From Holophagales bacterium (GTDB lineage: Bacteria; Acidobacteriota; Thermoanaerobaculia; Multivoradales; Multivoraceae): 64,000 nt of DNA. Shown here one piece after another: positions 3,247 to 46,597 of this stretch. The notes beneath the pieces are model-generated. The model was given only the letters and a program-made list of their open reading frames with translations, made no database searches and had not been told where the DNA came from. The stretch is from assembly GCA_009845425.1 (NCBI GenBank), contig VXZQ01000014.1:207783-271782 (forward strand), written 5' to 3'. The translations under genes and the position numbers were made by a program. How positions within the stretch are numbered: position 1 is the stretch's first letter; each line of letters starts with the position of its first letter.

Positions 3247-4383
3247 ATGGATCCGCTGCACGAACAGATGAGGTCCTGGCGCCGGGACTTCCACCGACAC
3301 CCCGAGCTCGCGTTCGAGGAAGTAGAGACCAGCCGCAAGGTGGCGGCGCTGCTCGAGTCGTTCGACGGCATCGAGGTCCACCGCGGCCTCGCCGGCACGG
3401 GCGTCGTCGGCGTGCTGAAGTCCGGCTCGTCGGAGCGCAGCATTGCACTCCGCGCGGACATGGACGCGCTGCCGATCGAGGAGGAGAACGAGTTCGAGCA
3501 CCGCTCGCGGAACCCCGGCAAGATGCACGCCTGCGGCCACGACGGCCACACGGCGATGCTGCTCGGAGCGGCGAGGCACCTGAGCCGGAACCGGACCTTC
3601 GACGGCACGGTCTACTTCTTCTTCCAGCCCGCGGAGGAGAAGGACGGCGGCGCCCGCGTGATGATCGAGGAGGGCCTGTTCGAGCAGTTCCCTGCCGAGG
3701 AGGTCTACGGCGTTCACAACTACCCGGGAATGGAGGTCGGCAACTTCGGTCTGTGCGCCGGGCCGCTGATGGCCGCGATCGACGTGTTCGAGTTCGCGGT
3801 GACCAGTGCCGGCGGCCACGCTGCCTTCCCTCACGGCACGGTCGACCCGATCCCGATCGGGGCCGAGATCGTCCTCGCCCTGCAGACGATCGTGGCCCGC
3901 AACGTGGACCCGCTGCATAGCGCGGTGATCACGGTGGCCCGTGTCCATGGCGGTCACGCGGACAACGTGATCCCAAGCCGGGTCGTTCACGGCGGCTGCG
4001 TCCGGGCGTTTCTGCCCGAGGTGCAGAAGCTGGTCGAGCGGCGGATGCGCCAGATCGGCCGCGGCATCTGCACCGCCCACGGCGCCGGCTTCGAGTTTCA
4101 GTACCGCCACTACTACCCGGCCACGGTGAACCACGCCGACCAGACCGAGAAGGCGGCCAACGCCGCCCGCGAAGTCGGCAAGGAGGTCACCACCAGCCTC
4201 GCCCCCGTGATGGGTTCCGAAGACTTCGCCTACATGCTCCAGGAACGCCCCGGCGCCTTCATGTTCCTCGGCAACGGCGAAAGCGCCGGCCTGCACACCC
4301 CGCGCTACGACTTCAACGACGACGTCCTGCCCATCGGCATGCGCTACTGGACCACGCTCGTCGAGACGCAGTTGTCCGCGTAG
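3247..4383 (+). CDS. M20 family amidohydrolase (N-acyl-amino-acid / hippurate hydrolase-like)
   Basis: PELAFEE...HACGHDGH...M20D peptidase motifs. Start at the ATG at 3247 (MDPLHEQ); upstream ORF extension is low-complexity. Confidence 0.85.
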   Translation: MDPLHEQMRSWRRDFHRHPELAFEEVETSRKVAALLESFDGIEVHRGLAGTGVVGVLKSGSSERSIALRADMDALPIEEENEFEHRSRNPGKMHACGHDGHTAMLLGAARHLSRNRTFDGTVYFFFQPAEEKDGGARVMIEEGLFEQFPAEEVYGVHNYPGMEVGNFGLCAGPLMAAIDVFEFAVTSAGGHAAFPHGTVDPIPIGAEIVLALQTIVARNVDPLHSAVITVARVHGGHADNVIPSRVVHGGCVRAFLPEVQKLVERRMRQIGRGICTAHGAGFEFQYRHYYPATVNHADQTEKAANAAREVGKEVTTSLAPVMGSEDFAYMLQERPGAFMFLGNGESAGLHTPRYDFNDDVLPIGMRYWTTLVETQLSA

Positions 4384-4400
4384 CGTCGTCGGTATCACCC

Positions 4401-4582
4401 GCCCGGCACGGGGCCGCAGGGGGAGGGGTTCCCTGCGGCCGTTCGCGCTCGGTCGGATGATGGGCAGTGGGCGCTCACTTCACTCCGCTCGCTTCGGTTG
4501 GTCGGTGCTTGCCGTCAGGTCGCCGGGAGTCGCTCGCTGCGAGCCCGCAGGGCACCCCTCCCCCTGCGGCCCCGTGCCGGGC
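4401..4582. repeat. Large hairpin: 36-bp near-perfect inverted repeat (4401-4436 / 4547-4582) with a ~110-nt spacer
   Basis: gcccggcacggggccgcagggggaggggttccctgc at 4401-4436; its reverse complement gcagggcacccctccccctgcggccccgtgccgggc at 4547-4582 (35/36 match). Lies 18 bp downstream of the M20 gene stop. Confidence 0.8.
4435..4481. repeat. Left terminal inverted repeat (~47 bp) of the putative cassette
   Basis: gcggccgttcgcgctcggtcggatgatgggcagtgggcgctcacttc; its reverse complement is found at 7060-7106 with 2-3 mismatches. Confidence 0.8.
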
Positions 4583-4987
4583 TGGACCTCGTCGGGCTTC
4601 GCGCGCTCCTCTTGTGCTTGCGGTGCGGTGACCGCGATCCGGGCGCGGGTGGCTGTCTCTCGGTGGGATCCTTGTTCTCTCACGGACGCTTGACCACCGG
4701 CAATCCACTGACGGCCGGACACCTGCACGGTGGTCGGGTCACCTGCGGTGCGTTCTCGTGCGGACGACCCGCCTGCTGCGCCCGGGTGGCGCGGTCCCAG
4801 CGGGCTCGGTGCGAGCGGCGCTCGCCTCCCTTCAGAAACCAGAGTCCAACCGACGTGAGAGTCGCTCCGCAAGGGAATCGAAGAGCCTAGCGTCGTAGCG
4901 TCAGGAAGCTGGTAGAAACGGCTGTGCGGGTTCTTATGCCAAGCCAGCACACAGAGAACAGAAACGAGAACGGGGGAGGATGGCCGG

Positions 4988-5410
4988 ATGGTGAATCTAC
5001 TCAGAGAGCGGGGCTGGTTTCGAGACGTGGCTGCGGACAAGCTACTCCTCGAGACGGTTGAAGGCTACGGCATGGTGCTGGAAGCGAAGCTCGCCGACAT
5101 GGCCGAGGAGTACGCTGAGCTAGAGCCACTGGGGAACGCGGACGGTATGCTGCAGAGCTGGTGGGAGGGCGTTGAGGAGTTGATCGAAGCTGGCTTGGTC
5201 CGCAACAAGGCTCCCAAGGAGTATGCGTTGACACATGAGGGCCGAGTTCAACTCCACAGTCTTCGGGCTTCCGAGAAGCAGCAGAAGAGCTTGGAGCAGC
5301 AGCAAAGGAGCTTGGAACTTGGTCTGAAACGGCTAAGCGTGGCTCTCTGGGCTCTCGGCGCGAGTGCTCTCTTTGGGTTGCTAAACATCGCTTTACAGTG
5401 GATGGACTGA
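4988..5410 (+). CDS. Hypothetical protein, helical with C-terminal transmembrane anchor
   Basis: 140 aa. GGGGAGGA Shine-Dalgarno 7 nt upstream of ATG 4988. C-terminal hydrophobic helix LSVALWALGASALFGLLNIAL. Located in the low-GC segment. Confidence 0.55.
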   Translation: MVNLLRERGWFRDVAADKLLLETVEGYGMVLEAKLADMAEEYAELEPLGNADGMLQSWWEGVEELIEAGLVRNKAPKEYALTHEGRVQLHSLRASEKQQKSLEQQQRSLELGLKRLSVALWALGASALFGLLNIALQWMD

Positions 5411-5432
5411 ACGGTACGCGGGGATCCCCCGT

Positions 5433-5451
5433 CCGGCCCCGGAACGGGGCC
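5433..5451 (+). terminator. GC-rich stem-loop downstream of the 4988-5410 ORF
   Basis: ggcccc-ggaac-ggggcc (6-bp GC stem) about 25 nt after the stop codon. No U-tract, as is common in high-GC genomes. Confidence 0.25.
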
Positions 5452-5829
5452 AAAGGGACTCGGCTAGCTGACGAAGCAGGCGCGTCTTCGGGGTCAGCTC
5501 GCTCGTCTCGTCGAAGCCATGTGCAGTCCTCGCGTCCCTGAGCCTCCGATCCCTTGATGGATGCCGGGCCCGTTGTCACAGAGGCTGCGCTTGGTCTCCC
5601 ATGTTCGCCGCGTCCACGGAGCTGTTCTGGCTGTTGACCGAATCCTGTATGCGGCGGCGAGCCGACTCAGGGCTGCATGCCTGTGTGTGACGGCGACCGC
5701 AAAGCAGACCACGGGAAGCCCATAGCCAGATGACGATTCCCGGATGGCGCTATGATGCGTTGCCTCGCCGGCACGCCTAGCCCGGATGGCGAACCGCACT
5801 AGACACCGAATGCGCGTGGAGTAAGCACT

Positions 5830-6879
5830 ATGCCGCGTCTCTTCGTCCTCATGCCCTTTTCGCCGGACCTCGAGCCCGTCTATGAGCGCCTCTTCAAAGA
5901 GCCATTCGAGAAAGCTGGTTACGACGTGAGCAGGGCGAAGGACATCGACAGCCAGCGGAACATCCTTGAGGACATTATTGAGTCTGTACGGGATAGCGAT
6001 CTGATACTAGCGGACCTTACAGACTTGAATGCCAATGTGTTCTATGAACTAGGAATCGCACATGCCTTCGACAAGAATGTGGTTCTAGTCAGCCAAGAGA
6101 TAAGTAGCTTACCTTTCGATCTGCAATCCTACCGCGTCGTTCGCTACAGCACCAGCTTCACCGAGATGGAAGAAGCCGTCCAACACATGGAGGACCGTGC
6201 GCGGAAGATCATCTCCGGCGGGATGAAGTTCGCCAATCCAGTTGCGGACTTCGCGGACTCGGTGGCTTCACCTTTCGCGGAAGCGGAAGAGGAGGACGCT
6301 CCAACTGAAGAGGACGAGGACGAGCGTCGCGGCATTCTGGACTTTCAGGCTGACTTCCTAGAGAACGTGGAAACCCTCGGAGCCCTGGTTGGCGACGGCA
6401 CCAAGCGAATTGAGGGTATGAGCGAACGCGTTTCGGCTGCCAACGAACGCATCACGGGAGTCGAGTTCGGCCAGCCTAGTCGGCAGCGTCGGACGATTCG
6501 GGACCTGGGATTCTCCCTGGAGAAAGACGCGGCATGGTTCAAGGACTTCGGTAGCAGATACTACGATGTGCTGGCGGAAGTAGAAGATGCTGTCGTCGGA
6601 ATGTTCAGCACTAAGAGGCACCTTGATGGGGAGAGCCGGGAGGAGTTGATTCTATTCATAGATGTGACGGAGAAGACAGAAAGCCAACTCTCGGATGCAG
6701 CGGCCAATTTCCAGAGCCTGATAGCGGCGATTGACGGAGTGCCGAAGATCGAGCGCAGGTTTGACCGAGGCAGTCGTGCACTGGCAAGAGAGCTTGAGAC
6801 CTACATAGACAACATCGAGTTGTCGATTGCTGTCATAACGAGATCAAGAAACCTGGCCAAGAAGATGTTGGGTGACTAG
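5830..6879 (+). CDS. DNPH1 (Rcl) / nucleoside 2-deoxyribosyltransferase-like N-terminal domain fused to an acidic linker and a ~190-aa helical domain of unknown function; candidate nucleotide-targeting defense effector
   Basis: N-terminus ...LILADLTDLNANVFYELGIAHAFDKNVVLV...PFDL... parallels the DNPH1 core (VVAEVTQPSLGVGYELGRAVALGKPILCL) including the catalytic-type YELG Glu. Acidic linker EAEEEDAPTEEDEDE. Lowest GC in the window (~47%). Confidence 0.6.
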   Translation: MPRLFVLMPFSPDLEPVYERLFKEPFEKAGYDVSRAKDIDSQRNILEDIIESVRDSDLILADLTDLNANVFYELGIAHAFDKNVVLVSQEISSLPFDLQSYRVVRYSTSFTEMEEAVQHMEDRARKIISGGMKFANPVADFADSVASPFAEAEEEDAPTEEDEDERRGILDFQADFLENVETLGALVGDGTKRIEGMSERVSAANERITGVEFGQPSRQRRTIRDLGFSLEKDAAWFKDFGSRYYDVLAEVEDAVVGMFSTKRHLDGESREELILFIDVTEKTESQLSDAAANFQSLIAAIDGVPKIERRFDRGSRALARELETYIDNIELSIAVITRSRNLAKKMLGD

Positions 6880-7059
6880 GGACTGGCCCGAGCAGTCGGC
6901 TTGGGGCGGATTGGGAAGACCGGGTTCTTGTCGCCGGACGGGCCAGCCTGACTGTCTGAGACTGGTGTGTGTTGGGGGAGCAGTTTGGAGCGCTCCCTGG
7001 CCGTTGTGCGCCGAAGGTGCGTGCGATCTTCGCCACTTCGGCACACGCAGAGGAAGGAA

Positions 7060-7106
7060 GAAGTGAGCGCCCACTCCCCATCGTCCGACCGAGCGCGAAC
7101 GGCCGC
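7060..7106. repeat. Right terminal inverted repeat (~47 bp), reverse complement of 4435-4481
   Basis: gaagtgagcgcccactccccatcgtccgaccgagcgcgaacggccgc; followed (7107-7140) by a degenerate copy of the 36-bp hairpin repeat. Confidence 0.8.
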
Positions 7107-7169
7107 CTGGGACCGCGCCCCCCGGACTCTCGGCAGGCGGGTGCTACTACCGCCGCTGCGCCGTCGGTG

Positions 7170-8075
7170 CTACGCGCAGTTGCAGAGTTCGATGAAGAAG
7201 GCGCGGACGGTGTCGAGGAACTCGGGAGAGCTCAGGGTGGTCATGTGGTTGGCGCCTTCGATGACGTGGAGGCGGTGCTCCTTCATCACGTCGACCAGGG
7301 CGTCGGCGTTGGGCTTCAGGGGATCGTCGCTGCCAATGATGTTGAGGGTCGGCACCTTGTTGATGCGGAGGAGTTCGGCGTTCACGTCGAGGGCGGGCAT
7401 GCCGCGGACGACGGCTGCCAGGGCCATCTGGTCGTTCGCGGCGACCATCGCCTGGCCGATCGCCTGAACCTGTTCAGGGGTCGGCGGTTCCTCGCCGGGC
7501 CACAGGAACTCGACGAGAGGGCCGCCGCCCTTTCCCGCCTCGAGGGAGGCGGCCAGCGCGTCGAACATCGCGTCGTCGCGCAGTTCGGGGCTCGGCCAGC
7601 CGGCGCCGCCGACCACGGCGGACATGAGCCGGTCAGGTGCCAGGGCGACGAGCTTCATCGTGATGAAGCCACCCATCGAGTAGCCGACGACGTGGGCCTG
7701 CTGCAGCCGCAGATGATCGAGCAGGTCGACGACGTCCAGAGCCATCCGTTCGCCGTAGCTCGCGGGGTCGTGGGGCTTGCCGCTCATGCCGTGGCCGCGC
7801 TGGTCGACGGCGATGACCTGGAACTCCTCGGCCAGCCGGCCGATGATGCCGGCGGCGCCCCAGTTCGAGGCGGCGGTGCCGGTAATGCCGTGAAGCAGCA
7901 CGACCGGGTCGCCGCGGCCTTCGACGACGTAGTGGATCTCGACGCCGTCACTGGCCGTGAACGACCGGGTCGAGGCTTCGCCTTGCGCGTGAGCGCCGGC
8001 GAAGGCGACTGTGAGCACTAGCGCCGCCAGGACGGCAGCGAACATCGACCGCGGTTTCTTCGTATGGATCATCAT
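7170..8075 (-). CDS. Secreted alpha/beta hydrolase
   Basis: Signal peptide, HG oxyanion box (VVLLHG), nucleophile elbow GYSMGG. Start chosen at MMIHTKK (8075). Confidence 0.8.
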   Translation of the reverse strand: MMIHTKKPRSMFAAVLAALVLTVAFAGAHAQGEASTRSFTASDGVEIHYVVEGRGDPVVLLHGITGTAASNWGAAGIIGRLAEEFQVIAVDQRGHGMSGKPHDPASYGERMALDVVDLLDHLRLQQAHVVGYSMGGFITMKLVALAPDRLMSAVVGGAGWPSPELRDDAMFDALAASLEAGKGGGPLVEFLWPGEEPPTPEQVQAIGQAMVAANDQMALAAVVRGMPALDVNAELLRINKVPTLNIIGSDDPLKPNADALVDVMKEHRLHVIEGANHMTTLSSPEFLDTVRAFFIELCNCA

Positions 8076-8131: not shown

Positions 8132-8917
8132 ATGGACATCGAGAGCGCAGCACGGCGCGTCCGCGAAGACGGCTACACCGTCGAGCCGGACTTTCTGAGC
8201 GAGGAGACGCTGGAGCGGTTGCGCCGTGATCTCGCGCCCGTCTTCGAGGCGATCGGCAGCCGGATGACGGACGACTACGGCCAGCAGACGATCCATACGC
8301 ACAACCTGCTGGCCAAGACGCGGGCCGTCGACGAGCTGCTCATGGACGATCGTCTGCTGGGGCTGGTGGAGGCGGTGCTCGGCCCCGATTACCAGGTCTC
8401 CGGCGTCGCCGCGATGCGGCCCGGACCGGGAGACCGTCCCCAGCGGATGCACCAGGACGACGGCCACTATCCGCTTCCGCGCCCGCACGTTCCGCTGATC
8501 GCCAACACGCTGATCGCCCTCGATCCGTTCACGGTGGAGAACGGGGCCACGGAGATCGTTCCCGGCAGCCATCGCTCGGCCGATCCGGTCGATCCCGACG
8601 TGCCGACGTTGACGGTGGAGATGCCGGCCGGGGCGCTCTTCCTCTGGGACGGCGCCGTCTGGCACCGGGGCGGCGGCAACTCGACGCAGAGCGGGTATCG
8701 ACGCTCCCTCAACTTCAACTTCAACCTGGCGTGGCTCAAGCAGCGGGAGAACCAGTTCGTCGGCGTGCCGTGGGAAGTCGTGGTGGAAATGCCCGAGAAG
8801 CTGCAGGCGTTGATCGGTTACAAGCTGACCAACCGCGGTCTGGGCACGGTGGACTACCGCAACCCCATCGAGACCGTGAAGCGGCGGTTGGCGGAGACAA
8901 GGGGGATGAGCAGATGA
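8132..8917 (+). CDS. Phytanoyl-CoA dioxygenase (PhyH) family Fe(II)/2-oxoglutarate oxygenase
   Basis: PhyH-like HxD...H pattern (MHQDDGHY ... VWHRGGGN). Confidence 0.75.
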   Translation: MDIESAARRVREDGYTVEPDFLSEETLERLRRDLAPVFEAIGSRMTDDYGQQTIHTHNLLAKTRAVDELLMDDRLLGLVEAVLGPDYQVSGVAAMRPGPGDRPQRMHQDDGHYPLPRPHVPLIANTLIALDPFTVENGATEIVPGSHRSADPVDPDVPTLTVEMPAGALFLWDGAVWHRGGGNSTQSGYRRSLNFNFNLAWLKQRENQFVGVPWEVVVEMPEKLQALIGYKLTNRGLGTVDYRNPIETVKRRLAETRGMSR

Positions 8918-9381
8918 CAGCAGCATCCGCGACGGAAACCAGAGATAGCGAATCGAAGCCGCGGTCGGTGGTTGAGTCGGCCGTCGAAACGGCCCACAAG
9001 GTGGCGCTCGCCGGCGCCGGCGTAGCGGGCGAGGCGGCAGATGTGGGCGCCAAGGTCTTCGACCGGCTGGTCGCCCGCGGCGCGAAGGTCGAGAGCCAGG
9101 GCAGGGAGTCCCTGAGCGACTGGCGGGACAAGGCCGAGGAGAAGGTTCAGCAGGTGCGTTCCGCGGCCGAGAAGGGGATCGAACAGACCCGGGTCAAGGC
9201 GCGGACGGGAATCGACGAGCACCTGGAGCGCCGACTCGAGAAACTCGGCGTGCCCGGCCAGGCGGACCTGGAGGCCGTGATCGAACGGCTGAGCGCGATC
9301 GAGGCGCGGCTCGATGCGCTTGAGAAGCCGAAACCGCGGCGGCGGGCGGCGAAGAAGAAGACGCCCGCGAAGGCCGGGTAG
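8914..9381 (+). CDS. Polyhydroxyalkanoate granule-associated protein (phasin, PhaF-like) with Lys/Ala-rich histone-like tail
   Basis: LAGAGVAGEA...KVFDRLVARGAKVE...LGVPGQADLEAV...AKKKTPAKAG matches the phasin family pattern. ATGA start/stop overlap with the upstream gene. Confidence 0.75.
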   Translation: MTAASATETRDSESKPRSVVESAVETAHKVALAGAGVAGEAADVGAKVFDRLVARGAKVESQGRESLSDWRDKAEEKVQQVRSAAEKGIEQTRVKARTGIDEHLERRLEKLGVPGQADLEAVIERLSAIEARLDALEKPKPRRRAAKKKTPAKAG

Positions 9382-9417
9382 GAGCCGGGTTCGCCGGCGC
9401 AGCCGGCAGGGGAGTGC

Positions 9418-12102
9418 TTACGCCGCGCGGCGGCGGGTTCGTCGTTCGACCCGCACGGCGCGGAGGATCCGGCTCACCGTGGCCGGTCGGACACCTTCGC
9501 TGATGCGTTCCTCCGCCAGCTCGAAGGCGAGCTTCCACTGCTGCCGCAGGATCGCGTGAGCGGCGAGGAAGCCGTGGCGACGGTCGTACATGTGGGTGGC
9601 CTCGGAAGTCACGCCGTTCACTTCCAGCACACGGAGACCTTCGCCGCACTGGAGGGCCTCGGCGTTCGGAACGCGCACGTCGAAGCGGCCGAAGTCGAAC
9701 CCGTCGTAGGCGGTGCAGATCGCGTTCATCGCTCGTTCCAGTTCCGGGGTGTGCAGGTCGTTGGCGTCCAGGAAGATCGTCCCGCGCGAGTGGGCGCCGA
9801 CCTGGGTCAGCTCGACTCTCTCGCCGGCGGCAGGGACATGCGTCGCCGCTTCGGGATGCTCCCGCCGGTAGATGTGCGCGATGGCGACCGCGCGCGGGTC
9901 GTCCAGGATCAACCGCTCCAGCGTGCTGGTTCCGTCGCCGGTCACGGTGGGGCGGACCTTGTGGGTGATCGAGAAGACGTGCCCGTCGCGCCGGCCTGGG
10001 TGGCGGGCCCAGAACACGCCGTACTCCTCGCCCGCCATGTATTCCTGCGCGAGCGCGGGCCCGGGGGTCGCTGCGAAGAACGTCGCCGCTTCGGCCTCGG
10101 AGCGCGCGACGGCGACGCCGCGGCCGCGCTCGCCGGTGTCCGGCTTGAGCACGACCGGGTAGCCGAGGTTCTCGTCCTCCAGGAACCGGTCCAGGGCCGC
10201 GATGCGTTCCTCCGGGCCGCCGGTCGGCATGCGCCTCCAGGCCGGCAGCGCCTCGCCGATGCCGGCCAGGCCTTCGAGGATGTCGCTCTTCGACTCTCCG
10301 AACAGGCCGCCCAGGGGCATCGCGGGGTTGATCGCAGTGAACGCCGTCAGGTTGCCGCGCCGCAGGCCCCGCCACAGGATGTAGAGGGCGAGAGGCGGGT
10401 AGAACGCCCACATCGGCCAGAACTCCCAGTGCCGGATGCGTAGCAGACGGCCGCGCCAGAGGCGGCGGCCGCGCCAGGTGAACAGCGGCACGACGACGCC
10501 ACGTACGGTGAAGATGACGAGAGCCAGAGCCAGCACGGCGCCGAGAAGGCCCCCCGGCAGGCGGCCGCCGAAGCGTTCGACCGCCTCGCGTCCCAGGACC
10601 GCGTTGACGCCGACGAAGGCCGGGGTCCAGATCGCCACGGCGAGGGCGAAGTAGAAGCAGAAGCGGAGCAGGCTCGTGCGCAGGATGCCGGCGGCGAGGC
10701 AGGTCGGCAGCCGCGTTCCGGGCAGGAACCGGCTGACCAGGACGACGACCAGGGCCCGCCGGCGCAGCCACGCCGAGGCTTCTTCGAATCTGGCCTCGCT
10801 GACCCACCACTTGAAGGGTGGCAGCCTGAGAGCCGGGCGGCCCAGGACGCGCGCCAGCCAGGCGATGCCGAGGTCGCTGCTCAGGATGCCGACGTAGCAG
10901 GCGGCGACGGCGACCGGGAAGTCGAGCCGGCCCTGGGCCACGAGCAGGCCGGCGGTGATGCAGGTCAGGTCCTCGCTGGCGTACGCGGCGAACACGAGGA
11001 GCAGGAAGACGATCAGCAGGGCCGGCCCGGTGAACGGCGGCAGGTCCAGGTCGTCGAACGGCAGTGCCGCCCGTCGTAGCCGCTCCGATTCGGCGTCGGT
11101 GCGGGTCGGCGCCTCGCCGGCCTCGACCCGGCTCAGGAAGTCCTCGATACGGGCCGCCAGGTGCTCGCCGCCGCGGAACAGGAAGAAGTGGCTGTCCGGC
11201 CGCATCCACAGCTCGCTGTGCGGCACGATCCGGTGGTGCTCCCTTGCCGCGGCGGCCGGCACCAGCGGGTCCTGCGCGCCGTGGATGATGAACACCGGCG
11301 CTTCGAGGGACTCCAGGATGCCGCGCAGCGGCCGCTGGTCCGTGTCGTAGAAGTTGCGGGCGTAGGAGCGGGCGACGGCCATGTCGAGGGCGCCGAAGTG
11401 GGGGACCAGGTTGCGCACTCCCCAGAACAGGCCGAGCTGAAGGCCGTGCAGGCCGTGGTTGACCCGGTAGTCGCCGAGGAGCTCGAGTTCCTGGACGCCG
11501 ATCGAGGACATGAGGATGACGGAGGCCACTCGCTCGGGCGCCTCGTCGGCGAGATGCAGGGCGACCGCGCCGCCCATGCTGAAGCCGAGGACGTGGAACC
11601 GTTCGACGTCCAGTCGATCGAGCAGCTTGAGCGTCGAGTCGGCGTGACCGCGCGAGGAGTAGTCGGCCACTCGGTGGTCGGAGGCGCCGAACCCGGGGAG
11701 GTCGGGCGCGATGGTACGCCGCCGGAGAGCGTCGGAGACGCCGTTTGGTTGACTCGGGGAGGAGTAGTGCACGCTGGATTTGAGGCGGTGGAAGTTCTGG
11801 GAGCTGCCGGGCGACCCATGGAGGAGCACGAGGGGCAGCGACTCCGGGTTCGGTGAGTCGGTTTCATCCCATGCGATGCGCAGTGTGTCCTCTCCGTTCG
11901 GTGCAGGGATCTCCATCGTCGGCTTGAAGCTGAATGGGGAACGCACCAGTCTGAACTCGCCGTCCGGGGCGGGAAACTCGAGCAGAGTCATGGACGGGTG
12001 CTGCTCGCGGACGAATCGCACGACCGTCGAGACAAGAAGCAGCGCGCAGTAGGCGCCAACCGCGATGCGAAGCCAGCGGCGGCGCCACCTGGAAGTCGTC
12101 AT
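9418..12102 (-). CDS. Tri-domain membrane protein: alpha/beta hydrolase + DedA/SNARE-associated membrane domain + C-terminal ATP-grasp ligase domain
   Basis: LVLLHGSPGS / GFSMGG (hydrolase). VSRFLPGTRLPTCLAAGIL (DedA R-F/I-x-P-G-x-R motif). VVLKPDTGERGRGVAV ... EYMAGEEYGVF ... LEVNGVTS (ATP-grasp). 4-nt overlap with the upstream acyltransferase gene. Confidence 0.8.
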   Translation of the reverse strand: MTTSRWRRRWLRIAVGAYCALLLVSTVVRFVREQHPSMTLLEFPAPDGEFRLVRSPFSFKPTMEIPAPNGEDTLRIAWDETDSPNPESLPLVLLHGSPGSSQNFHRLKSSVHYSSPSQPNGVSDALRRRTIAPDLPGFGASDHRVADYSSRGHADSTLKLLDRLDVERFHVLGFSMGGAVALHLADEAPERVASVILMSSIGVQELELLGDYRVNHGLHGLQLGLFWGVRNLVPHFGALDMAVARSYARNFYDTDQRPLRGILESLEAPVFIIHGAQDPLVPAAAAREHHRIVPHSELWMRPDSHFFLFRGGEHLAARIEDFLSRVEAGEAPTRTDAESERLRRAALPFDDLDLPPFTGPALLIVFLLLVFAAYASEDLTCITAGLLVAQGRLDFPVAVAACYVGILSSDLGIAWLARVLGRPALRLPPFKWWVSEARFEEASAWLRRRALVVVLVSRFLPGTRLPTCLAAGILRTSLLRFCFYFALAVAIWTPAFVGVNAVLGREAVERFGGRLPGGLLGAVLALALVIFTVRGVVVPLFTWRGRRLWRGRLLRIRHWEFWPMWAFYPPLALYILWRGLRRGNLTAFTAINPAMPLGGLFGESKSDILEGLAGIGEALPAWRRMPTGGPEERIAALDRFLEDENLGYPVVLKPDTGERGRGVAVARSEAEAATFFAATPGPALAQEYMAGEEYGVFWARHPGRRDGHVFSITHKVRPTVTGDGTSTLERLILDDPRAVAIAHIYRREHPEAATHVPAAGERVELTQVGAHSRGTIFLDANDLHTPELERAMNAICTAYDGFDFGRFDVRVPNAEALQCGEGLRVLEVNGVTSEATHMYDRRHGFLAAHAILRQQWKLAFELAEERISEGVRPATVSRILRAVRVERRTRRRAA

Positions 12103-21752: not shown

Positions 21753-23819
21753 TCAAGGCAGCGCGAACGCCATCAACTCCGGCACGCCGTCCGTATCGCG
21801 CCTGCCGGCGACCGTCAGCGCGATGTACTGCTTGCCTTCCCAGAGGTAGGTCATCGGCGTGCCGAGCCCGCGCGCCGGCAGCGGCACCTCGGCGATCACG
21901 TCGCCCGTCCGCTTGTCCCGGGCGACGAGGCGGTTGCCGCCATCGTCGTCCGGCGCGTGCTGGCCGTGGATCAGCAGGGTCTTCGTCAGCAGCGGTCCGG
22001 TGTAGGTGTCGCCGCCGAGCGGGGGAAGGTCGAGGTCCTTCAGTCGAGGGTGGTTGCGCAGCGTGTCGTTGGTGCCGAGCGGCTTCATCCACACGTGCTC
22101 GCCGGTGAAGAGGTCGATCGCGGTCATCCGCGTGTACGGGGGCTTGAACAGGGGCAGACCTTCCGGCATCGCGGGACGCCGGCCGCGGCCGCCGTGGGTG
22201 TAGCGGAGGGTGCCGCCTTCTAGCGGGTCGGGCGTGTAGAACGTGACCATGCTGAACGCGTTCCGCGACGGCACGTAGAGCCAGCCGGTCTCCGGATCGA
22301 CCGCGGCGCCGTACCAGTTCGCGCCACCTCCGGCTGACGGACGGAAGATCGTGCCCCGCTTGCCGCCGGGTTCGGGCAGGGACGGCGGCGTGTAGAGCGG
22401 CCCGATCCGGTAGTCCTTGATGACGTCGAGAGCCATCTGTCTGATCTCGGGCGTGAAGTCGGCCAGGTCGTCTTCAGTCACGCCCTGGTACTCGAACGGC
22501 GCTGGCTTCGTCGGGAAGGGCTGGGTGGGAGCCGCCGTGTCGCCGGGCATTGTCGCCGGGGGCACCGGCCGATCCTCGATCTCCCAGACCGGGTCGCCCG
22601 TGACGCGGTCGAAGACGTAGAGGAAACCCTGTTTGCTGACCTGGGCGACGATCTGTCGGGAGTCGGCGCCGTCGCGGCCCGGGAGGTCGATCAGGGTCGG
22701 TGCGGCCGGGAAATCGTAGTCCCAGAGGCCGTGGCGGACGGCCTGGAAGTGCCAGAGCTTCTCTCCCGTCTCGACATCGACGGCGACCAGGCTTTCGGAG
22801 TAGAGGTTGTCGCCGGGCCGGTGGCCGCCGTAGAAGTCGTTCGTGGCGGTGCCGATCGGCAGGTAGACGATGCCGTTCTCGTTGTCACCCGAGAGCATGG
22901 TCCAGACGTTCGCGTTGCCCGAGTACCGCCAGGACTCGTCCTCCCAGGTCTCGACGCCCTCGTCGCCCTCCTGGGGCACGGTGCGGAACACCCACCGAAG
23001 CTCGCCGGTGCGCGCGTCCCAGCCGCGCACCCAACCGGGTATCGACTCCCTGGTGATCCGGCGGTCGGCGATCGAGGCGCCGGTGACGACGACGTCCCGG
23101 ACCACAACCGGCGGCGACTGCATCGAGTAGAGCAGGGCGTTCAGGTAGTCCCGCTCGCCGCGGTTCGCGCGCGGCAGGTCTTCCATCAGGTCCACCCGGC
23201 CGCCGTCTCCGAAGTCCTCGTTCGGGCGGCCGGTACGGGCATCGACCGAGAGCAAGTAGCCGTCGCCAGTGCCCCAGTAGACGCGACTGTCCGCGTCGTC
23301 GCCTTCCTCTCCGTTCGTCCAGTACGCGACGCCGCGCTGGTTCCAGACCACGGTCATCGTCGTCGTGCCGCTTTCGTAGCTCTTCGGGTTGTACGCCCAG
23401 ACCGTCCGGCCGGTGCCGGGGTCGACCGCGGCACCGATCGAGATCGGCGTGTTCAGGAACAGCAGTCCCTCCTGCATCAGCGGCGTCGCCTTCAGGTTGC
23501 GGATGAAGGGAGCGCGGCCGGCGCGCCAGAGCAGCGGATCGTCGTCCTTCAGCCGGCTGAAGATGACGTCGCGGTCGGCGTACCACTCGCCGCCCGCCTC
23601 GGACTTGCTGAGGAAACCGTCGACCGACCGCCAGCGCCAGGCGACCTCGAGTTCGCCGAAGTTCGTGGCGTCGATCTGATCGAGCGGCGAGTACTTGGTC
23701 GACCCTGTGTCACCGCCGTAGCTCGGCCACTCGCCGGCCGGGGCGCCGCGCTGGGCGGCGGCCGGGGCGGCGAGCAGCAGGGCGACCAGGCCGCCGGCGG
23801 CAATCGTCGTTCTGGGCAT
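21753..23819 (-). CDS. PQQ-dependent dehydrogenase (quinoprotein alcohol/glucose dehydrogenase family), secreted
   Basis: Signal peptide, then GEWPSYGGDTGSTKYSPLDQI...LEVAWRW... PQQ beta-propeller repeats. Start at MPRTTIAAG (23819). Confidence 0.85.
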   Translation of the reverse strand: MPRTTIAAGGLVALLLAAPAAAQRGAPAGEWPSYGGDTGSTKYSPLDQIDATNFGELEVAWRWRSVDGFLSKSEAGGEWYADRDVIFSRLKDDDPLLWRAGRAPFIRNLKATPLMQEGLLFLNTPISIGAAVDPGTGRTVWAYNPKSYESGTTTMTVVWNQRGVAYWTNGEEGDDADSRVYWGTGDGYLLSVDARTGRPNEDFGDGGRVDLMEDLPRANRGERDYLNALLYSMQSPPVVVRDVVVTGASIADRRITRESIPGWVRGWDARTGELRWVFRTVPQEGDEGVETWEDESWRYSGNANVWTMLSGDNENGIVYLPIGTATNDFYGGHRPGDNLYSESLVAVDVETGEKLWHFQAVRHGLWDYDFPAAPTLIDLPGRDGADSRQIVAQVSKQGFLYVFDRVTGDPVWEIEDRPVPPATMPGDTAAPTQPFPTKPAPFEYQGVTEDDLADFTPEIRQMALDVIKDYRIGPLYTPPSLPEPGGKRGTIFRPSAGGGANWYGAAVDPETGWLYVPSRNAFSMVTFYTPDPLEGGTLRYTHGGRGRRPAMPEGLPLFKPPYTRMTAIDLFTGEHVWMKPLGTNDTLRNHPRLKDLDLPPLGGDTYTGPLLTKTLLIHGQHAPDDDGGNRLVARDKRTGDVIAEVPLPARGLGTPMTYLWEGKQYIALTVAGRRDTDGVPELMAFALP

Positions 23820-23926
23820 GTCGGCCGCCAATCGTACCGATACGACACCCACTGGGTGCGCTGGCGTCTTCGCCGGCATCCGCCGGAGGCGGAATCCGGC
23901 TCTCCGCCCGGCGGCTATGCTCCCGC

Positions 23927-30827: not shown

Positions 30828-31618
30828 CGACGGCGGGCGATACGGGGCGTCCCACACTGGGTGCGCCGGCGTCCCCGCCGGCCTCTGGAGGAGATACGGT
30901 CTACCTGGCCGCGATGAAGTCCGAGGCTTCGGCCCTGTTGCGCCGCGTGGAGGGCGCCTCGCGCGTCGGTGATGGCGCTGCCCCCGCTGCCGTCAGGGGC
31001 CGCATCGGGGACCGGCCCGTCCAGGTGGCCGTCTGCGGCGTCGGTGACCGGGCGGCGCGGCGGGCCGCCGAACGCTGCGCTCGCCTGGCCTCCCAAGGCG
31101 CCTGCGGCAGGGTGGTCTGGATCGGCATCGCCGGCGCCCTGTCGCAGGACCTCGAGGTGGGCGATCTGGTCGTCGGCCGGACCGTGATGGCTCCGGAGCA
31201 GCCGCCCATAGGCGTCGACGAGACCCTGGTCGAGGCGGCCGTGGCGCGAGGCTGCCGTCCGGGCGTTCTGGTCACCGCTTCCGGTCTGGTGGTCACCGCC
31301 TCGTCCCGCGAGGCGCTGTGGCGGAGCAGCGGCTCTCAGCCCCGGACCGTCGTCGACATGGAGACCTGGGCGGCGGCCCGGGTGCTCCACCGCGCCGGCG
31401 TTCCCTTCGTCGCGGTGCGCGCCATCAGCGACACGGCGGCGGATCGGCTTCCGTCGTGGCTCGAGCGCGCGTCGGCGTCCGGCGGCGGTTTCCCGCTGAG
31501 CCCGGTCGTTCGGGGAGCTCTGATACGTCCCTCGGCCCTTGTTCCGCTGGCGAAGATCCGCCTTCGGACGGCTCGCCTGGGCGTTCGGTTGGCCGAAGTG
31601 GCCGCGTCGCTGGCCTAG
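30824..31618 (+). CDS. hpnG: Hopanoid-associated phosphorylase HpnG (PNP/MTA nucleosidase family)
   Basis: TVYLAAMKSEA ... VRAISD motifs of the PNP/UDP family. GTGA overlap with the hpnA stop. Start ambiguous (30785/30818/30824). Confidence 0.7.
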   Translation: MTTAGDTGRPTLGAPASPPASGGDTVYLAAMKSEASALLRRVEGASRVGDGAAPAAVRGRIGDRPVQVAVCGVGDRAARRAAERCARLASQGACGRVVWIGIAGALSQDLEVGDLVVGRTVMAPEQPPIGVDETLVEAAVARGCRPGVLVTASGLVVTASSREALWRSSGSQPRTVVDMETWAAARVLHRAGVPFVAVRAISDTAADRLPSWLERASASGGGFPLSPVVRGALIRPSALVPLAKIRLRTARLGVRLAEVAASLA

Positions 31619-44611: not shown

Positions 44612-46597
44612 ATGTGCGTGTTTGCGGCGGCGCTGGTCGGTTTCGTCGCCGGCGCCGCCGGGGCCGAGACCGGCGAGCAGGGTCGCTCCGTCTACGGCGA
44701 GTGGCGGCATCACGGCGGCGACCACGCCTCGAGCCGCTACTCGCCGCTGACCCAGATCGACGGTTCGAACTTCAGCCGGCTCGAGGTCGCCTGGCGCTGG
44801 CGCACAGCGGACCACGAGGTGCCGCTGGACGTGCTTCCGGGCTACGACACGGGGTTCTATCGCTCCGTTCCCTTGATGATCGGCGGCCGCCTGTTCGCAC
44901 CGACCAGCCTGGGCCAGGTCGCCCTGCTCGACCCGGCGACTGGCGAGCAGGAATGGGTCTACAACCCGAAGACCTGGGAGCGCGGCGGCACCACGATGCG
45001 GCCGGTCGGCGCTCGCGGCATCGAGTACTGGTCGGACGGCGAGAAAGAGCGCCTGTTCGTCGCCACGATCGGCCGCCAGCTCGTCTCGATCGACGCCGCC
45101 ACCGGACTGGCCGACCGCGCGTTCGGCGAGGATGGCGTGGTCGACCTGGCGCAGGATCTGGGGCCGGGCGACTACGCGATCCGCCACGTCACGCACGGCG
45201 CGCCGCCGATCGTCGTCGGCACCAGCGTGATCGTCGGCTCGAAGATCTTCGACTACTCGATCAGGAGCGACGCACCGCCCGGCCATGTGCGTGCCTACGA
45301 CGTCCACACGGGCGAGTTCAAGTGGCGCTTCAACACGATTCCCCGGGACGACGAGTACGGCGTCGAGACCTGGGAGAACGAGTCCTGGCGCACGGCCGGC
45401 AACGCGAATGTGTGGACGTCGATGAGCGCGGACCACGAACTGGGATACGTCTACCTGCCGACCAGCACGCCGTCGAACGACTACTACGGGGCCGACCGGC
45501 CGGGCGACAACCTGTTCGCCGAGAGCCTGGTCTGCGTCGACGCGGAGACGGGCGAACGCATTTGGCACTTCCAGACCGTCCGCCACGGCATCTGGGACTA
45601 CGACATCGCTTCGGCCCCGAACCTGCTCGACATCGTCGTCGACGGCAAGCTGATCAAGGCCGTCGCGCAAGTCTCGAAGACCGGCTTCACGTACGTGTTC
45701 GACCGCGCCACCGGCGAGCCGGTGTGGCCGATCGAGGACCGGCCGGTGAATCACAAGTCGACGGTGCCGGGCGAGAAGCTGTCAGAGACGCAGCCGTTCC
45801 CGACGAAGCCACCTGCCTTCGAGCGGCAGGGCGTCAGCGAGGATGACCTGATCGACTGGACGCCGGAACTGCGCGAAGAGGCACTGAAGATCGCGGAGAA
45901 GCTGGTGCTCGCGCCCATGTTCCCGCCCCTGATCGTCAAGGGTGAGGGCGGCAAGGAGGGCGTGATGGTCGTCCCGGGGGCCGCCGGTGGCGCGAACCAC
46001 CCCGGAGCGTCCGTCGACCCGAGGACCGCTGTGCTCTTCGTCGAGTCGCAGAACCGGCCCACCGGGATGTCGCTGATCGAGCCGGATGCGGCGCGCCGTC
46101 CGGACTGGCGGTACGTGATCGACTACGTCGACACGGGTGGGCCACAGGGCCTGCCCCTGACGAAGCCGCCGTACCGGACGATTACCGCGATCGACCTGAA
46201 TCGTGGCGAGCACCTCTGGCGCATCCCTGTCGGTCCGGGCCCGAAGAACCATCCGGCCATCGCTCACCTGAACCTCGGCGACATGGGCACGATCTACTTC
46301 GGTATGCCGGCGGACGGCGGTCTGCTCGTCACCCGCACGCTCCTGATCGGCTTCGTGGCCCTGCCCGACGAGGACAATCCCCGCACCAGCAGCGGCGGGC
46401 TCCTGCGCGCCTACGACAAGGCGACAGGCGAACTGCTCGCCGAAGTGAGAACGGACGTCTGGCTGCACGGCCCGCCGATGACCTACATGCATGAGGGCCG
46501 GCAGTACATCGTCATCGCCGGGGGCGGCGCCCGCAATCGCCGGATCCCCGATGAGTTGATCGCCTTTGCGTTACCGGAGTCCCCGACCGATGCTTAA
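44612..46597 (+). CDS. PQQ-dependent dehydrogenase (paralog of 21753-23819), secreted
   Basis: Same signature as the first copy (GEWRHHGGDHASSRYSPLTQI...LEVAWRW). Start at ATG 44612 after the signal-peptide Met. Confidence 0.85.
   Translation: MCVFAAALVGFVAGAAGAETGEQGRSVYGEWRHHGGDHASSRYSPLTQIDGSNFSRLEVAWRWRTADHEVPLDVLPGYDTGFYRSVPLMIGGRLFAPTSLGQVALLDPATGEQEWVYNPKTWERGGTTMRPVGARGIEYWSDGEKERLFVATIGRQLVSIDAATGLADRAFGEDGVVDLAQDLGPGDYAIRHVTHGAPPIVVGTSVIVGSKIFDYSIRSDAPPGHVRAYDVHTGEFKWRFNTIPRDDEYGVETWENESWRTAGNANVWTSMSADHELGYVYLPTSTPSNDYYGADRPGDNLFAESLVCVDAETGERIWHFQTVRHGIWDYDIASAPNLLDIVVDGKLIKAVAQVSKTGFTYVFDRATGEPVWPIEDRPVNHKSTVPGEKLSETQPFPTKPPAFERQGVSEDDLIDWTPELREEALKIAEKLVLAPMFPPLIVKGEGGKEGVMVVPGAAGGANHPGASVDPRTAVLFVESQNRPTGMSLIEPDAARRPDWRYVIDYVDTGGPQGLPLTKPPYRTITAIDLNRGEHLWRIPVGPGPKNHPAIAHLNLGDMGTIYFGMPADGGLLVTRTLLIGFVALPDEDNPRTSSGGLLRAYDKATGELLAEVRTDVWLHGPPMTYMHEGRQYIVIAGGGARNRRIPDELIAFALPESPTDA

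What the first reader, a model, noticed from the sequence alone, without database searches (positions are those of the whole stretch)
4401..4582. Exceptionally long hairpin (36-bp stem, ~110-nt loop) at the cassette left end
A 35/36-bp perfect stem is far longer than a normal terminator. The loop contains the left 47-bp terminal repeat. Such structures can be recombination substrates (integron attC or hairpin-forming transposon ends) or strong bidirectional terminators insulating the insertion from the upstream M20 gene.
Basis: seen in the sequence. Interest (0 to 1): 0.5.

Follow-up and report, generated by a model that had tools for sequence, protein, structure and literature searches.

The report
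Structured hairpin repeat carrying integration site
The long hairpin is real. It is one intact copy of a roughly 210-base structured repeat that sits just after genes in Acidobacteria, its loop holds a short site where integrase-borne foreign DNA inserts, and the neighbouring 'cassette' lies inside a second, split copy.

Summary
The hairpin exists: arms 4398-4438 and 4545-4585 pair at 39 of 41 positions, with a 106-nt spacer and a folding z-score near -7.4.

It is not the end of the cassette. It is an intact copy (E1, 4384-4600, + strand) of a ~210-nt repeat family. I found at least 14 copies in Acidobacteriota genomes and metagenomes.

- **Structure.** Stem sequences differ between copies but stay complementary. 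20 pairs show changes on both sides, and 91% of cells pair against 38-50% in slid controls. The ~105-nt loop is conserved.
- **Position.** Every informative copy starts 9-50 nt after the stop codon of a gene on the same strand.
- **Second copy.** A convergent copy (E2, minus strand) is split: half A' at 7154→7059 and half B' at 4860→4765. The 2.2-kb low-GC cassette lies in its loop, directly after GCGCTCACTTC.
- **Integration site.** In locus L142 a 9.9-kb island with a P4-type tyrosine integrase splits another copy at the same point. It is flanked by an 11-nt direct repeat, and L032 is the unoccupied ortholog.

So the loop acts as an attB-like landing site. Close relatives have no element at this locus (8-61 nt between the genes), so it was gained.

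A role as an RNA 3'-end structure is inferred, not shown. There is no match in Rfam, plasmids or phages.

The parts
4384..4600 (+). Element E1: an intact ~217-nt copy of the structured repeat. This is the hairpin of the finding. Its stem foot starts 12 nt after the M20 stop codon.
   Evidence: nhmmer with the family profile matches profile positions 4-216, E 1.9e-44.
4398..4438 (+). Left arm of the long stem (helices H1 and H2).
4545..4585 (+). Right arm of the long stem.
4439..4544 (+). Conserved 'loop' with three predicted inner helices: H3 (4441-4448 with 4471-4478), H4/5 (4490-4498 with 4522-4529; 4506-4507 with 4513-4514) and H6 (4532-4535 with 4541-4544).
   Evidence: RNAalifold consensus on 11 copies, mapped to window coordinates. 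H4/5 has 29 G.T cells against 1 A.C cell.
4471..4481 (+). GCGCTCACTTC, an unoccupied attB-like core. The insertion point lies directly after 4481, in the linker between H3 and H4.
   Evidence: The same 11-mer borders inserted DNA in E2, L053 and L142, and is duplicated at both ends of the L142 island.
7059..7154 (-). Element E2, 5' half (A'): foot, left stem arm, H3 and core. It ends at GCGCTCACTTC (7070→7060). The stem foot starts 26 nt after the hydrolase stop codon.
   Evidence: nhmmer profile positions 5-100, E 4.4e-15. Core position; distance.
4765..4860 (-). Element E2, 3' half (B'): H4-H6 region and right stem arm, partly decayed. The second core copy and about 23 nt are missing.
   Evidence: nhmmer profile positions 105-204, E 7.8e-7. 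The missing stretch is seen against L142 attR. A' and B' joined in silico refold into the family-type long stem at -125 kcal/mol.
4863..7059 (.). I read it as a decayed remnant of an integrative island.
   Evidence: Composition. Boundaries. No integrase remnant by tblastn. Absent from the orthologous locus in relatives.
4988..5410 (+). Cargo ORF of 140 aa, with no family match.
5830..6879 (+). Cargo ORF of 349 aa with a TIR-like / nucleoside 2-deoxyribosyltransferase-like N-terminal domain.
   Evidence: Pfam PF05014 scores 25.5 bits, below the 28.8 cut-off. PADLOC TIR effector, E 1.8e-8. 701 homologs, widely spread.
3247..4383 (+). Host gene upstream of E1: M20 aminoacylase-type peptidase.
7170..8072 (-). 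Host gene upstream of E2: alpha/beta hydrolase.

Best explanation
**What it is (shown).** The hairpin is an intact, unoccupied copy (E1) of a dispersed ~210-nt structured repeat of Acidobacteriota. Each copy has four parts:
- a conserved stem foot (CACCCGCC ... GGCTGGAC);
- a ~37-41-bp stem whose middle differs between copies but stays complementary;
- a conserved stem top;
- a conserved ~105-nt centre with three predicted small helices.

Copies lie 9-50 nt downstream of the stop codon of a co-oriented gene. They are present or absent between related genomes.

**Integration site (shown by comparison).** The linker after helix H3 carries an 11-nt core, GCGCTCACT(T/C)C. It serves as the chromosomal attachment site for integrative islands that encode a P4-type tyrosine integrase. 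In the window, the convergent sister copy E2 was hit at exactly this point. The 2.2-kb low-GC 'cassette' is what remains of that insert: the integrase and the second core copy are lost.

**Function (inferred).** The intact element is probably transcribed as the 3' end of the upstream mRNA. There it would fold into the long stem plus junction and act as a 3'-end structure that terminates transcription or blocks exonucleases. Being conserved and multi-copy, it offers integrases several landing pads. How the element itself spreads is not known.
For: **Family**
- Full copies are in L032, L074 (three), L037 (two), L107, L100, L102 (the same locus as L097 and L104), L105 and L141. Split or partial copies are in window E2, L053, L142/L143 and L129.

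**Structure**
- RNAalifold predicts 57 pairs on 11 copies, and 20 of them show changes on both sides.
- 91.3% of cells pair, against 38-50% when partners are slid. 59 cells are compensatory, and 0 of 500 shuffles reach any measure.
- Inner helices H4/5 show 29 G.T cells against 1 A.C cell. They can therefore form only on the gene-sense strand.

**Position**
- 12 of 15 copies have a same-strand, high-GC3 ORF ending 9-50 nt before the stem foot.
- The other three are a tandem second copy, a copy 14 nt after a called gene, and one at a contig edge.

**Gain**
- The orthologous M20/hydrolase spacer is 8 nt in L139/L140, 61 nt with a plain 13-bp hairpin in L130, and 298 nt in L138. None of these holds the element.

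**attB**
- In L142, half A (56-159) and half B (10004-10137) flank 9.87 kb.
- GCGCTCACTCC is repeated at 140 and at 10015.
- An integrase with Arm-DNA-bind_3, Phage_int_M and Phage_integrase domains lies at 8674-9810, next to attR.
- L032 is the empty site, and its two alignments to L142 overlap on the core.

**Same junction elsewhere**
- Window E2 and L053 have different inserted sequence at the same junction.
- A CSGAAGT motif lies about 20 nt into all three inserts.

**E2 halves are cognate**
- Joined in silico, they refold into the family-type stem.
Against: - There are no transcript data, so the 3'-UTR role is inference from position, orientation and wobble asymmetry alone.
- The long stem shows no strand bias (G.T 14 against A.C 18). 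RNA-only selection would not predict this.
- Perfect arms with compensatory-looking changes can also arise without selection, through template switching at quasi-palindromes. That is established knowledge and was not tested here.
- Only one integrase-bearing occupied copy was found (L142, with L143 from a second sample).
- The window insert lacks an integrase and the attR core, so its origin by the same route rests on the shared junction and weak arm similarity.
- The L053 contig ends 48 nt past its junction. An inversion between E1 and E2 could also create that junction.
- In L074 and L037 the foreign genes lie between two complete convergent copies, not in a loop.
- Copy number per genome is unknown, because seed-based scans see only copies with exact seeds.
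- There is no T-tract after the stem.
Confidence: 0.7

Rival explanations
1. The element is a MITE- or REPIN-type non-autonomous transposon. Its arms would be terminal inverted repeats recognised by a transposase encoded elsewhere (for example a RAYT/TIRYT-type Y1 enzyme). The hairpin would be a by-product or a single-strand transposition intermediate. Any RNA effect and the use of the loop by integrases would be secondary.
For: - Size is about 210 bp, with long inverted ends, no coding capacity and multiple copies, including tandem and clustered ones in L074.
- It is present or absent between relatives.
- GGCGTCGG-like motifs occur on both flanks.
- Di Nocera et al. 2013 (PMC3733652) describe TIR families flanking Y1 transposase genes. 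One sharply defined transposase group is in Acidobacteria.
- The long stem has symmetric G.T and A.C counts.
Against: - The middle of the arms differs strongly between copies, even within one genome, while each copy keeps its own arms complementary. This is not the pattern of protein-recognised inverted repeats.
- Orientation is strict relative to the upstream gene.
- H4/5 pair in a strand-specific way.
- The flanking motif is part of the family consensus, not a copy-specific duplication.
- No autonomous partner or transposase was seen in any locus held.
Confidence: 0.3
2. One reading: the hairpin is the left terminal recombination structure of the cassette (attC-like, or a hairpin-forming transposon end), paired with the right 47-bp repeat.
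For: About 100 nt from 4378 onward are repeated, inverted, at 7060-7161. The low-GC genes lie between them.
Against: - The profile search finds the missing 3' half of the right-hand copy at 4860→4765. The insert is therefore bounded by the two halves of one element, and E1 lies outside it.
- Intact copies occur at many gene ends with no cassette (L032, L100, L102, L105, L107, L141).
- Homologs of the cargo gene elsewhere have no such element.
- No conserved GTTRRRY/RYYYAAC motif is seen at the element ends, which read CACCCGCC and GGCTGGAC.
Confidence: 0.05
3. The hairpin is only a locus-specific strong, possibly bidirectional, transcription terminator between convergent genes. It would have no family and no recombination role.
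For: - It lies between convergent genes, directly after a stop codon, and forms a very stable GC-rich stem.
- The relative L130 has a plain 13-bp hairpin at the same place.
Against: - At least 14 homologous copies lie behind unrelated genes in several genomes, with a conserved 105-nt centre.
- There is no T-tract.
- The loop is used as an insertion site.
Confidence: 0.05
4. The element is a free-standing small RNA gene with its own promoter. Integrases would use it as they use tRNA and tmRNA genes.
For: - Sequence and structure are conserved, with strand-specific wobble pairs.
- P4-type integrases classically target structured RNA genes. That is established knowledge.
Against: - No promoter-like site is present.
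- The element starts within 9-50 nt of a co-oriented stop codon in every informative case.
- There are several copies per locus.
- There is no Rfam family and no tRNA or tmRNA.
Confidence: 0.1

Closest known systems
REP doublets / REPINs and related palindromic intergenic repeats (Bertels & Rainey 2011, PMC3116915; Di Nocera et al. 2013, PMC3733652)
   Same: - Multi-copy intergenic inverted repeats that fold into long hairpins.
- Mostly downstream of genes or between convergent genes.
- Presence and absence between strains.
- Clustered and tandem arrangements.
   Different: - About 210 nt with a conserved ~105-nt three-helix centre, instead of two short REPs around a short spacer.
- No conserved GTAG tag next to a short stem.
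- A CGTC-containing motif lies 7-10 nt before the foot in only about 7 of 11 copies.
- No RAYT was seen.
- Apparent copy density is low: 2 in 64 kb.
ERIC/IRU and Correia-type MITE-like elements that are co-transcribed with neighbouring genes
   Same: - Imperfect palindromes of 100-200 bp, transcribed with the adjacent gene.
- Length variants are made by insertions at fixed internal positions. Here a ~90-nt two-hairpin module lies at GGCCGT^GTTCGC in three copies.
   Different: - Unrelated sequence and a different phylum.
- Strict orientation behind the stop codon.
- The loop serves as an integrase attachment site.
tRNA/tmRNA genes as attB for P4-type tyrosine integrases
   Same: - A conserved, structured sequence is used as the chromosomal site.
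- There is a short identity segment (11 nt) duplicated at both island ends.
- The integrase gene lies next to one junction.
- Occupied and empty orthologous sites were both found.
   Different: - The target is not a tRNA or tmRNA.
- It is a multi-copy repeat behind protein genes, so one genome offers several equivalent sites.
- Integration splits the long stem rather than restoring an RNA gene.
Integron attC sites
   Same: - A hairpin-forming site placed right after an ORF.
- Structure is kept while stem sequence varies.
- Associated with promoterless-looking foreign genes and a tyrosine recombinase.
   Different: - The crossover is in the loop, not at the R' box at the stem base.
- No R''/R' consensus.
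- The integrase has an arm-binding domain and is not IntI-like in architecture.
- The upstream genes are housekeeping genes with host composition.
- There is no direct-repeat array.
Insertion sequences that target REP/BIME palindromes (IS1397, ISKpn1, IS621-type), recalled from the literature and not tested here
   Same: Mobile DNA is directed into a defined position of a repeated palindromic element.
   Different: Here the only enzyme seen is a tyrosine integrase on a 9.9-kb island. No IS transposase is involved.

Membership tests
MITE (miniature inverted-repeat transposable element) | Short (<~300-500 bp), non-coding, with terminal inverted repeats | tested here: met
   About 210 nt, with arms of 37-41 nt and no credible ORF.
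MITE (miniature inverted-repeat transposable element) | Copy-specific target-site duplication flanking each copy | tested here: inconclusive
   GGCGTCGG-like motifs lie on both sides. They belong to the family consensus and match each other no better within a copy than between copies.
MITE (miniature inverted-repeat transposable element) | Terminal repeats shared with an autonomous element that encodes the transposase | not testable with these tools
No transposase lies next to any copy in the loci held.
REP / REPIN | Unpaired GTAG (or CGTC) tag directly next to a short 8-20-bp stem, with RAYT gene association | tested here: not met
   The stem foot is CACCCGCC. A CGTC-containing motif occurs 7-10 nt upstream in about 7 of 11 copies only. 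The architecture of long stem plus 105-nt centre differs from that in PMC3733652. RAYT association was not tested.
Integron attC | R''(RYYYAAC) ... R'(GTTRRRY) boxes at the base of the hairpin, with the crossover in R' | tested here: not met
   The element ends are CACCCGCC and GGCTGGAC, with no R''/R' motif seen there. Inserts join after GCGCTCACTTC in the loop.
Integron attC | Array of cassettes in direct orientation next to intI/attI | tested here: not met
   The two window copies are convergent. The upstream genes are host housekeeping genes. tblastn with the L142 integrase found no relative in the window. IntI itself was not searched for separately.
Intrinsic (Rho-independent) terminator | GC-rich hairpin with a short loop, followed by a T-tract | tested here: not met
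   No terminator-like site in 4200-7400. The loop is 106 nt and no T-run follows 4585.
attB of a tyrosine-integrase island | The same short core at both island junctions, an integrase gene at one end, and an unoccupied orthologous site | tested here: met
   This holds for the family in L142 against L032. For the window's own E2 only one junction keeps the core and no integrase remains. E1 carries the intact core.
Known RNA family (Rfam 15) / tRNA-like gene | A match to a curated covariance model, or an ARAGORN call | tested here: not met
   No relevant match at E up to 10. No tRNA or tmRNA in the window.

The most novel reading that the evidence does not exclude
The repeat may be a previously undescribed class of self-spreading structured 3'-end element. 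It would work as a multi-copy, exchangeable docking platform for integrase-borne defence and accessory islands in Acidobacteria, a functional counterpart of tRNA-gene hot spots or integron attC sites built on a different architecture. Its long, copy-specific stem would be actively kept perfect because it is needed for spread or for recombination, for example by bringing the two island junctions together.
Probability: 0.2. Interest if true: 0.75.

Novelty: new variant of a known kind. Interest (0 to 1): 0.55.

Why it matters
- **It re-reads the locus.** What looked like a cassette with a giant terminal hairpin is two copies of a structured repeat, one empty and one occupied.
- **It adds a repeat family.** The family has clear covariation, comes from a poorly studied phylum (sponge-associated and free-living Acidobacteriota) and has no match in Rfam.
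- **It links a dispersed palindromic repeat to site-specific integration.** A genome carrying several copies offers several equivalent landing sites for tyrosine-integrase islands. That may help explain how small defence-type gene sets (TIR-like, DUF4238, HicB-like) come to sit between convergent housekeeping genes.
- **It gives concrete material for experiments.** These are an 11-nt core, an integrase, and an occupied/empty site pair.

Tried and rejected
- **Retron-like or effector-partner RNA for the TIR-like cargo gene.** Rejected. There is no reverse transcriptase, and cargo homologs in L133, L135 and L136 have no element nearby.
- **Integron attC.** Rejected on end motifs and crossover position.
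- **tRNA or tmRNA.** None found.
- **Rfam.** No relevant match in three searches.
- **Plasmid or phage origin.** No blastn match. Viral-contig scans gave only chance matches. No relative of the L142 integrase is in viral contigs.
- **Assembly artefact.** Rejected.
- **Target-site duplication.** Looked for by eye in 11 copies, with no clear result.
- **Integrase remnant in the window insert.** None by tblastn.
- **A 349-aa protein in L131 as a cargo homolog.** Unrelated.
- **Genome-collection scan with the 19-mer.** It returned 93 stretches, mostly chance single matches. Only L032, L037, L053 and L074 were real.
- **Searching the protein database with the translated element, to catch spurious ORFs.** Only 2 hits, but one of them was the decisive locus L142.
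- **Y1 transposase (TIRYT) link suggested by PMC3733652.** Could not be tested.

Full report
**1. The observation**

The inverted repeat is real.
- The arms are 4398-4438 and 4545-4585, 41 nt each, 95% complementary, with 106 nt between them.
- The 27-nt arm core occurs only at these two places in the window, against 0.00 expected.
- Window 4385-4600 folds at -144.9 kcal/mol as RNA (z -7.4) and -78.7 kcal/mol as DNA (z -7.3). No shuffle is as stable.
- The first part of the loop is repeated, inverted, at 7060-7122. That similarity extends to about 100 nt.

The window comes from a metagenome-assembled genome labelled Holophagales bacterium (GCA_009838785.1, contig VXQW01000013.1). The sequence is identical in the ENA record. 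A Logan assembly of the run breaks inside the right arm at window 4553, which I read as the behaviour expected at a true inverted repeat longer than the assembler's word size.

**2. It belongs to a repeat family**

A scan of one genome per species with a 19-mer from the loop gave mostly chance hits. It also gave clear relatives:
- L053, a second sponge MAG, which holds the ortholog of this very locus;
- three Candidatus Multivorans genomes (Thermoanaerobaculia): L032, L037 and L074.

A gapped loop pattern found more copies in metagenome contigs: L100, L102 (the same locus as L097 and L104), L105 and L107. The whole ~210-nt unit is conserved at about 75%, not just the arms.

An alignment of 11 full copies (A3) shows:
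- a conserved foot, CACCCGCC…GGCTGGAC;
- a stem whose middle differs between copies;
- a conserved stem top;
- a conserved ~105-nt centre.

**3. Evidence for the structure**

- RNAalifold predicts the long stem (37 pairs) plus three inner helices. 20 pairs show changes on both sides.
- With the structure fixed, 91.3% of cells pair, against 38-50% when partners are slid by 1-3 columns.
- 59 cells are compensatory, and 0 of 500 shuffles reach any measure.
- In the long stem, G.T cells (14) and A.C cells (18) are equally rare, so the arms are kept as true complements with no strand preference.
- Inner helices H4/5 show 29 G.T cells against 1 A.C cell. They can form only on the gene-sense strand.

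One caveat from established knowledge: perfect arms can also be regenerated by template switching at quasi-palindromes. Covariation in the long stem alone therefore does not prove selection.

**4. Where copies sit**

- 12 of 15 copies have a same-strand ORF with host-like codon composition that ends 9-50 nt before the stem foot.
- The other three are the second copy of a tandem pair (L074a), a copy 14 nt after a called gene (L141), and a copy at a contig edge (L142).
- The upstream genes are unrelated housekeeping genes: M20 peptidase, alpha/beta hydrolase, topoisomerase VI subunit A, MoaA, M28 peptidase and a beta-lactamase-fold protein.
- No promoter-like or T-tract terminator-like site is present.
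- There is no Rfam family and no tRNA.

**5. The window holds two copies, and the cassette is inside the second**

A profile of the family (nhmmer) finds three matches in the window:
- E1 at 4384-4600, + strand, full length, E 2e-44;
- profile positions 5-100 at 7154→7059, minus strand, E 4e-15;
- profile positions 105-204 at 4860→4765, minus strand, E 8e-7.

The second element (E2) follows the hydrolase gene on the minus strand. It is split by about 2.2 kb (4863-7059), directly after GCGCTCACTTC. Joining the two halves in silico restores a family-type long stem at -125 kcal/mol.

The insert has these properties:
- It is 56-61% GC in a 68-69% GC genome.
- It carries a 140-aa ORF with no family match.
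- It carries a 349-aa TIR-like / deoxyribosyltransferase-like ORF.
- Homologs of the 349-aa protein are widespread. Elsewhere they lie in restriction/ATPase-type islands with no such element nearby.

The hairpin of the finding is therefore a separate, unoccupied copy and not the cassette's end.

**6. The loop is an integrase attachment site**

I translated the element and searched the protein collection for spurious ORFs called over it. This gave two hits. One led to L142/L143.

- In L142 the element is split by 9.87 kb. Half A is at 56-159 and half B at 10004-10137.
- The 11-mer GCGCTCACTCC is present at both junctions, at 140 and at 10015.
- A 378-aa tyrosine integrase with Arm-DNA-bind_3, Phage_int_M and Phage_integrase domains (phrog_1) lies next to the right junction.
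- L032 is the unoccupied ortholog (M28 peptidase, element, CDGSH gene). Its two alignments to L142 overlap exactly on the core.

The junction is at the same nucleotide in three inserts with different sequence:
- window E2: …CACTTC|TTCCTTCC
- L053: …CACTTC|TTGTCGCC
- L142: …CACTCC|TTCCAACT

All three inserts share a CSGAAGT motif about 20 nt in.

The window insert has no integrase remnant. It lacks the second core copy plus about 23 nt of the element. I read it as a decayed, immobilised island remnant.

In E1 the core is intact at 4471-4481. It overlaps the 3' strand of H3, and the crossover boundary lies in the H3-H4 linker. In L053 the ortholog of E1 itself is interrupted there. That contig ends 48 nt later, so an inversion between the two copies cannot be excluded.

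**7. The elements were gained**

At the orthologous M20/hydrolase junction, relatives at 85-92% protein identity differ widely:

| Locus | Spacer between the genes | Content |
|---|---|---|
| L139/L140 | 8 nt | no element |
| L130 | 61 nt | a plain 13-bp hairpin |
| L138 | 298 nt | no element |
| L129 | 1,027 nt | a degenerate piece of half A plus two small genes |
| L131 | rearranged | no element detected |

In Ca. Multivorans, three copies lie within 2.3 kb in L074, two of them tandem. Three copies in two genomes share a nearly identical ~90-nt two-hairpin insertion at one fixed loop position. The family, and a smaller module nested in it, have therefore been moving. The mechanism is unknown.

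**8. Interpretation**

*Shown*
- The hairpin is an intact member of a structured repeat family placed behind genes.
- Its loop carries a core used for site-specific insertion.
- The cassette lies in the sister copy.

*Inferred*
- The element acts in the upstream transcript as a 3'-end structure. This rests on orientation, proximity to stop codons and sense-strand wobble pairs.
- Integrases exploit it because it is conserved and multi-copy.

*Open*
- How it spreads. A MITE/REPIN-like route is the main rival. The paper on REP/TIR families and Acidobacteria Y1 transposases (PMC3733652) is a lead that I could not test.
- Why foreign genes in L074 and L037 lie between two complete convergent copies rather than in a loop.

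**9. Novelty**

There was no match in Rfam, plasmids or phages, or viral contigs. Full-text searches found no description of such an element.

The kind is known: palindromic intergenic repeats, and structured attB sites. New here are this architecture and the combination of a dispersed repeat with an integrase core in its loop.

Noticed in passing
L074 1051-1096 and 3095-3140; L037 3199-3244 (whole insert about 90 nt): Three copies of the hairpin element, in two Ca. Multivorans genomes, carry a nearly identical ~90-nt module of two small hairpins (CCGTGCGCCC…GGGCGCACGG and GGGTGGCGCG…CGCGCCACCC). In each it sits at the same loop position, GGCCGT^GTTCGC. The tandem neighbours L074a and L074b differ only by its presence, so it looks like a separate small mobile or excisable module.
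   Followed up: partly
window 23851-23868 and 30856-30873; L107 701; L142 10168; L143 1427: A second small GC-rich palindromic repeat (ACTGGGTGCGCYGGCGYCCCCGCCGGC…) occurs twice in the window, where 0.03 matches are expected. In L107, L142 and L143 it lies shortly downstream of hairpin elements. It may be a REP-like family of these Acidobacteria.
   Followed up: partly
window about 21821-23768 versus 44663-46511: Several long inverted matches (204 nt at 77%, 140 nt at 71%, 109 nt at 72% and others) point to a diverged paralogous gene block of about 2 kb, present twice in inverted orientation about 21 kb apart.
   Followed up: no
L074 1551-2411; L037 1152-1373 and 1386-2816: Low-GC foreign genes lie between two complete convergent hairpin elements. 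These are a DUF4238 protein in L074, and a DUF7387 protein (which I first took for HicB-like) plus a 476-aa protein with no family match in L037. They are not inside a loop, and this arrangement is unexplained.
   Followed up: partly
window 4885-4896 versus 4378-4389: A direct repeat, GCCTAGCGTCGT and GCGTAGCGTCGT. The sequence around the M20 stop codon and the E1 5' flank recurs just inside the insert, near its junction with half B'. Unexplained.
   Followed up: no
L129 1-9160, L130 1-9755, L138 1-6778: In relatives, the region upstream of the M20 gene holds a large NERD / UvrD-like helicase / MZB-domain gene cluster that looks like a defence system. The window has leucyl-tRNA synthetase there. 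The flank on that side of M20 is therefore also variable.
   Followed up: no
window 4601-4764: The 164 nt between the 3' ends of E1 and E2 match nothing in the family profile or in relatives. Their origin is unknown.
   Followed up: no
L129 11148-11214: A degenerate fragment of half A (profile positions 8-76) follows the M20 stop codon in a relative. It breaks at GTTCGC, before two small minus-strand genes. This is a different breakpoint from the GCGCTCACTTC core.
   Followed up: partly
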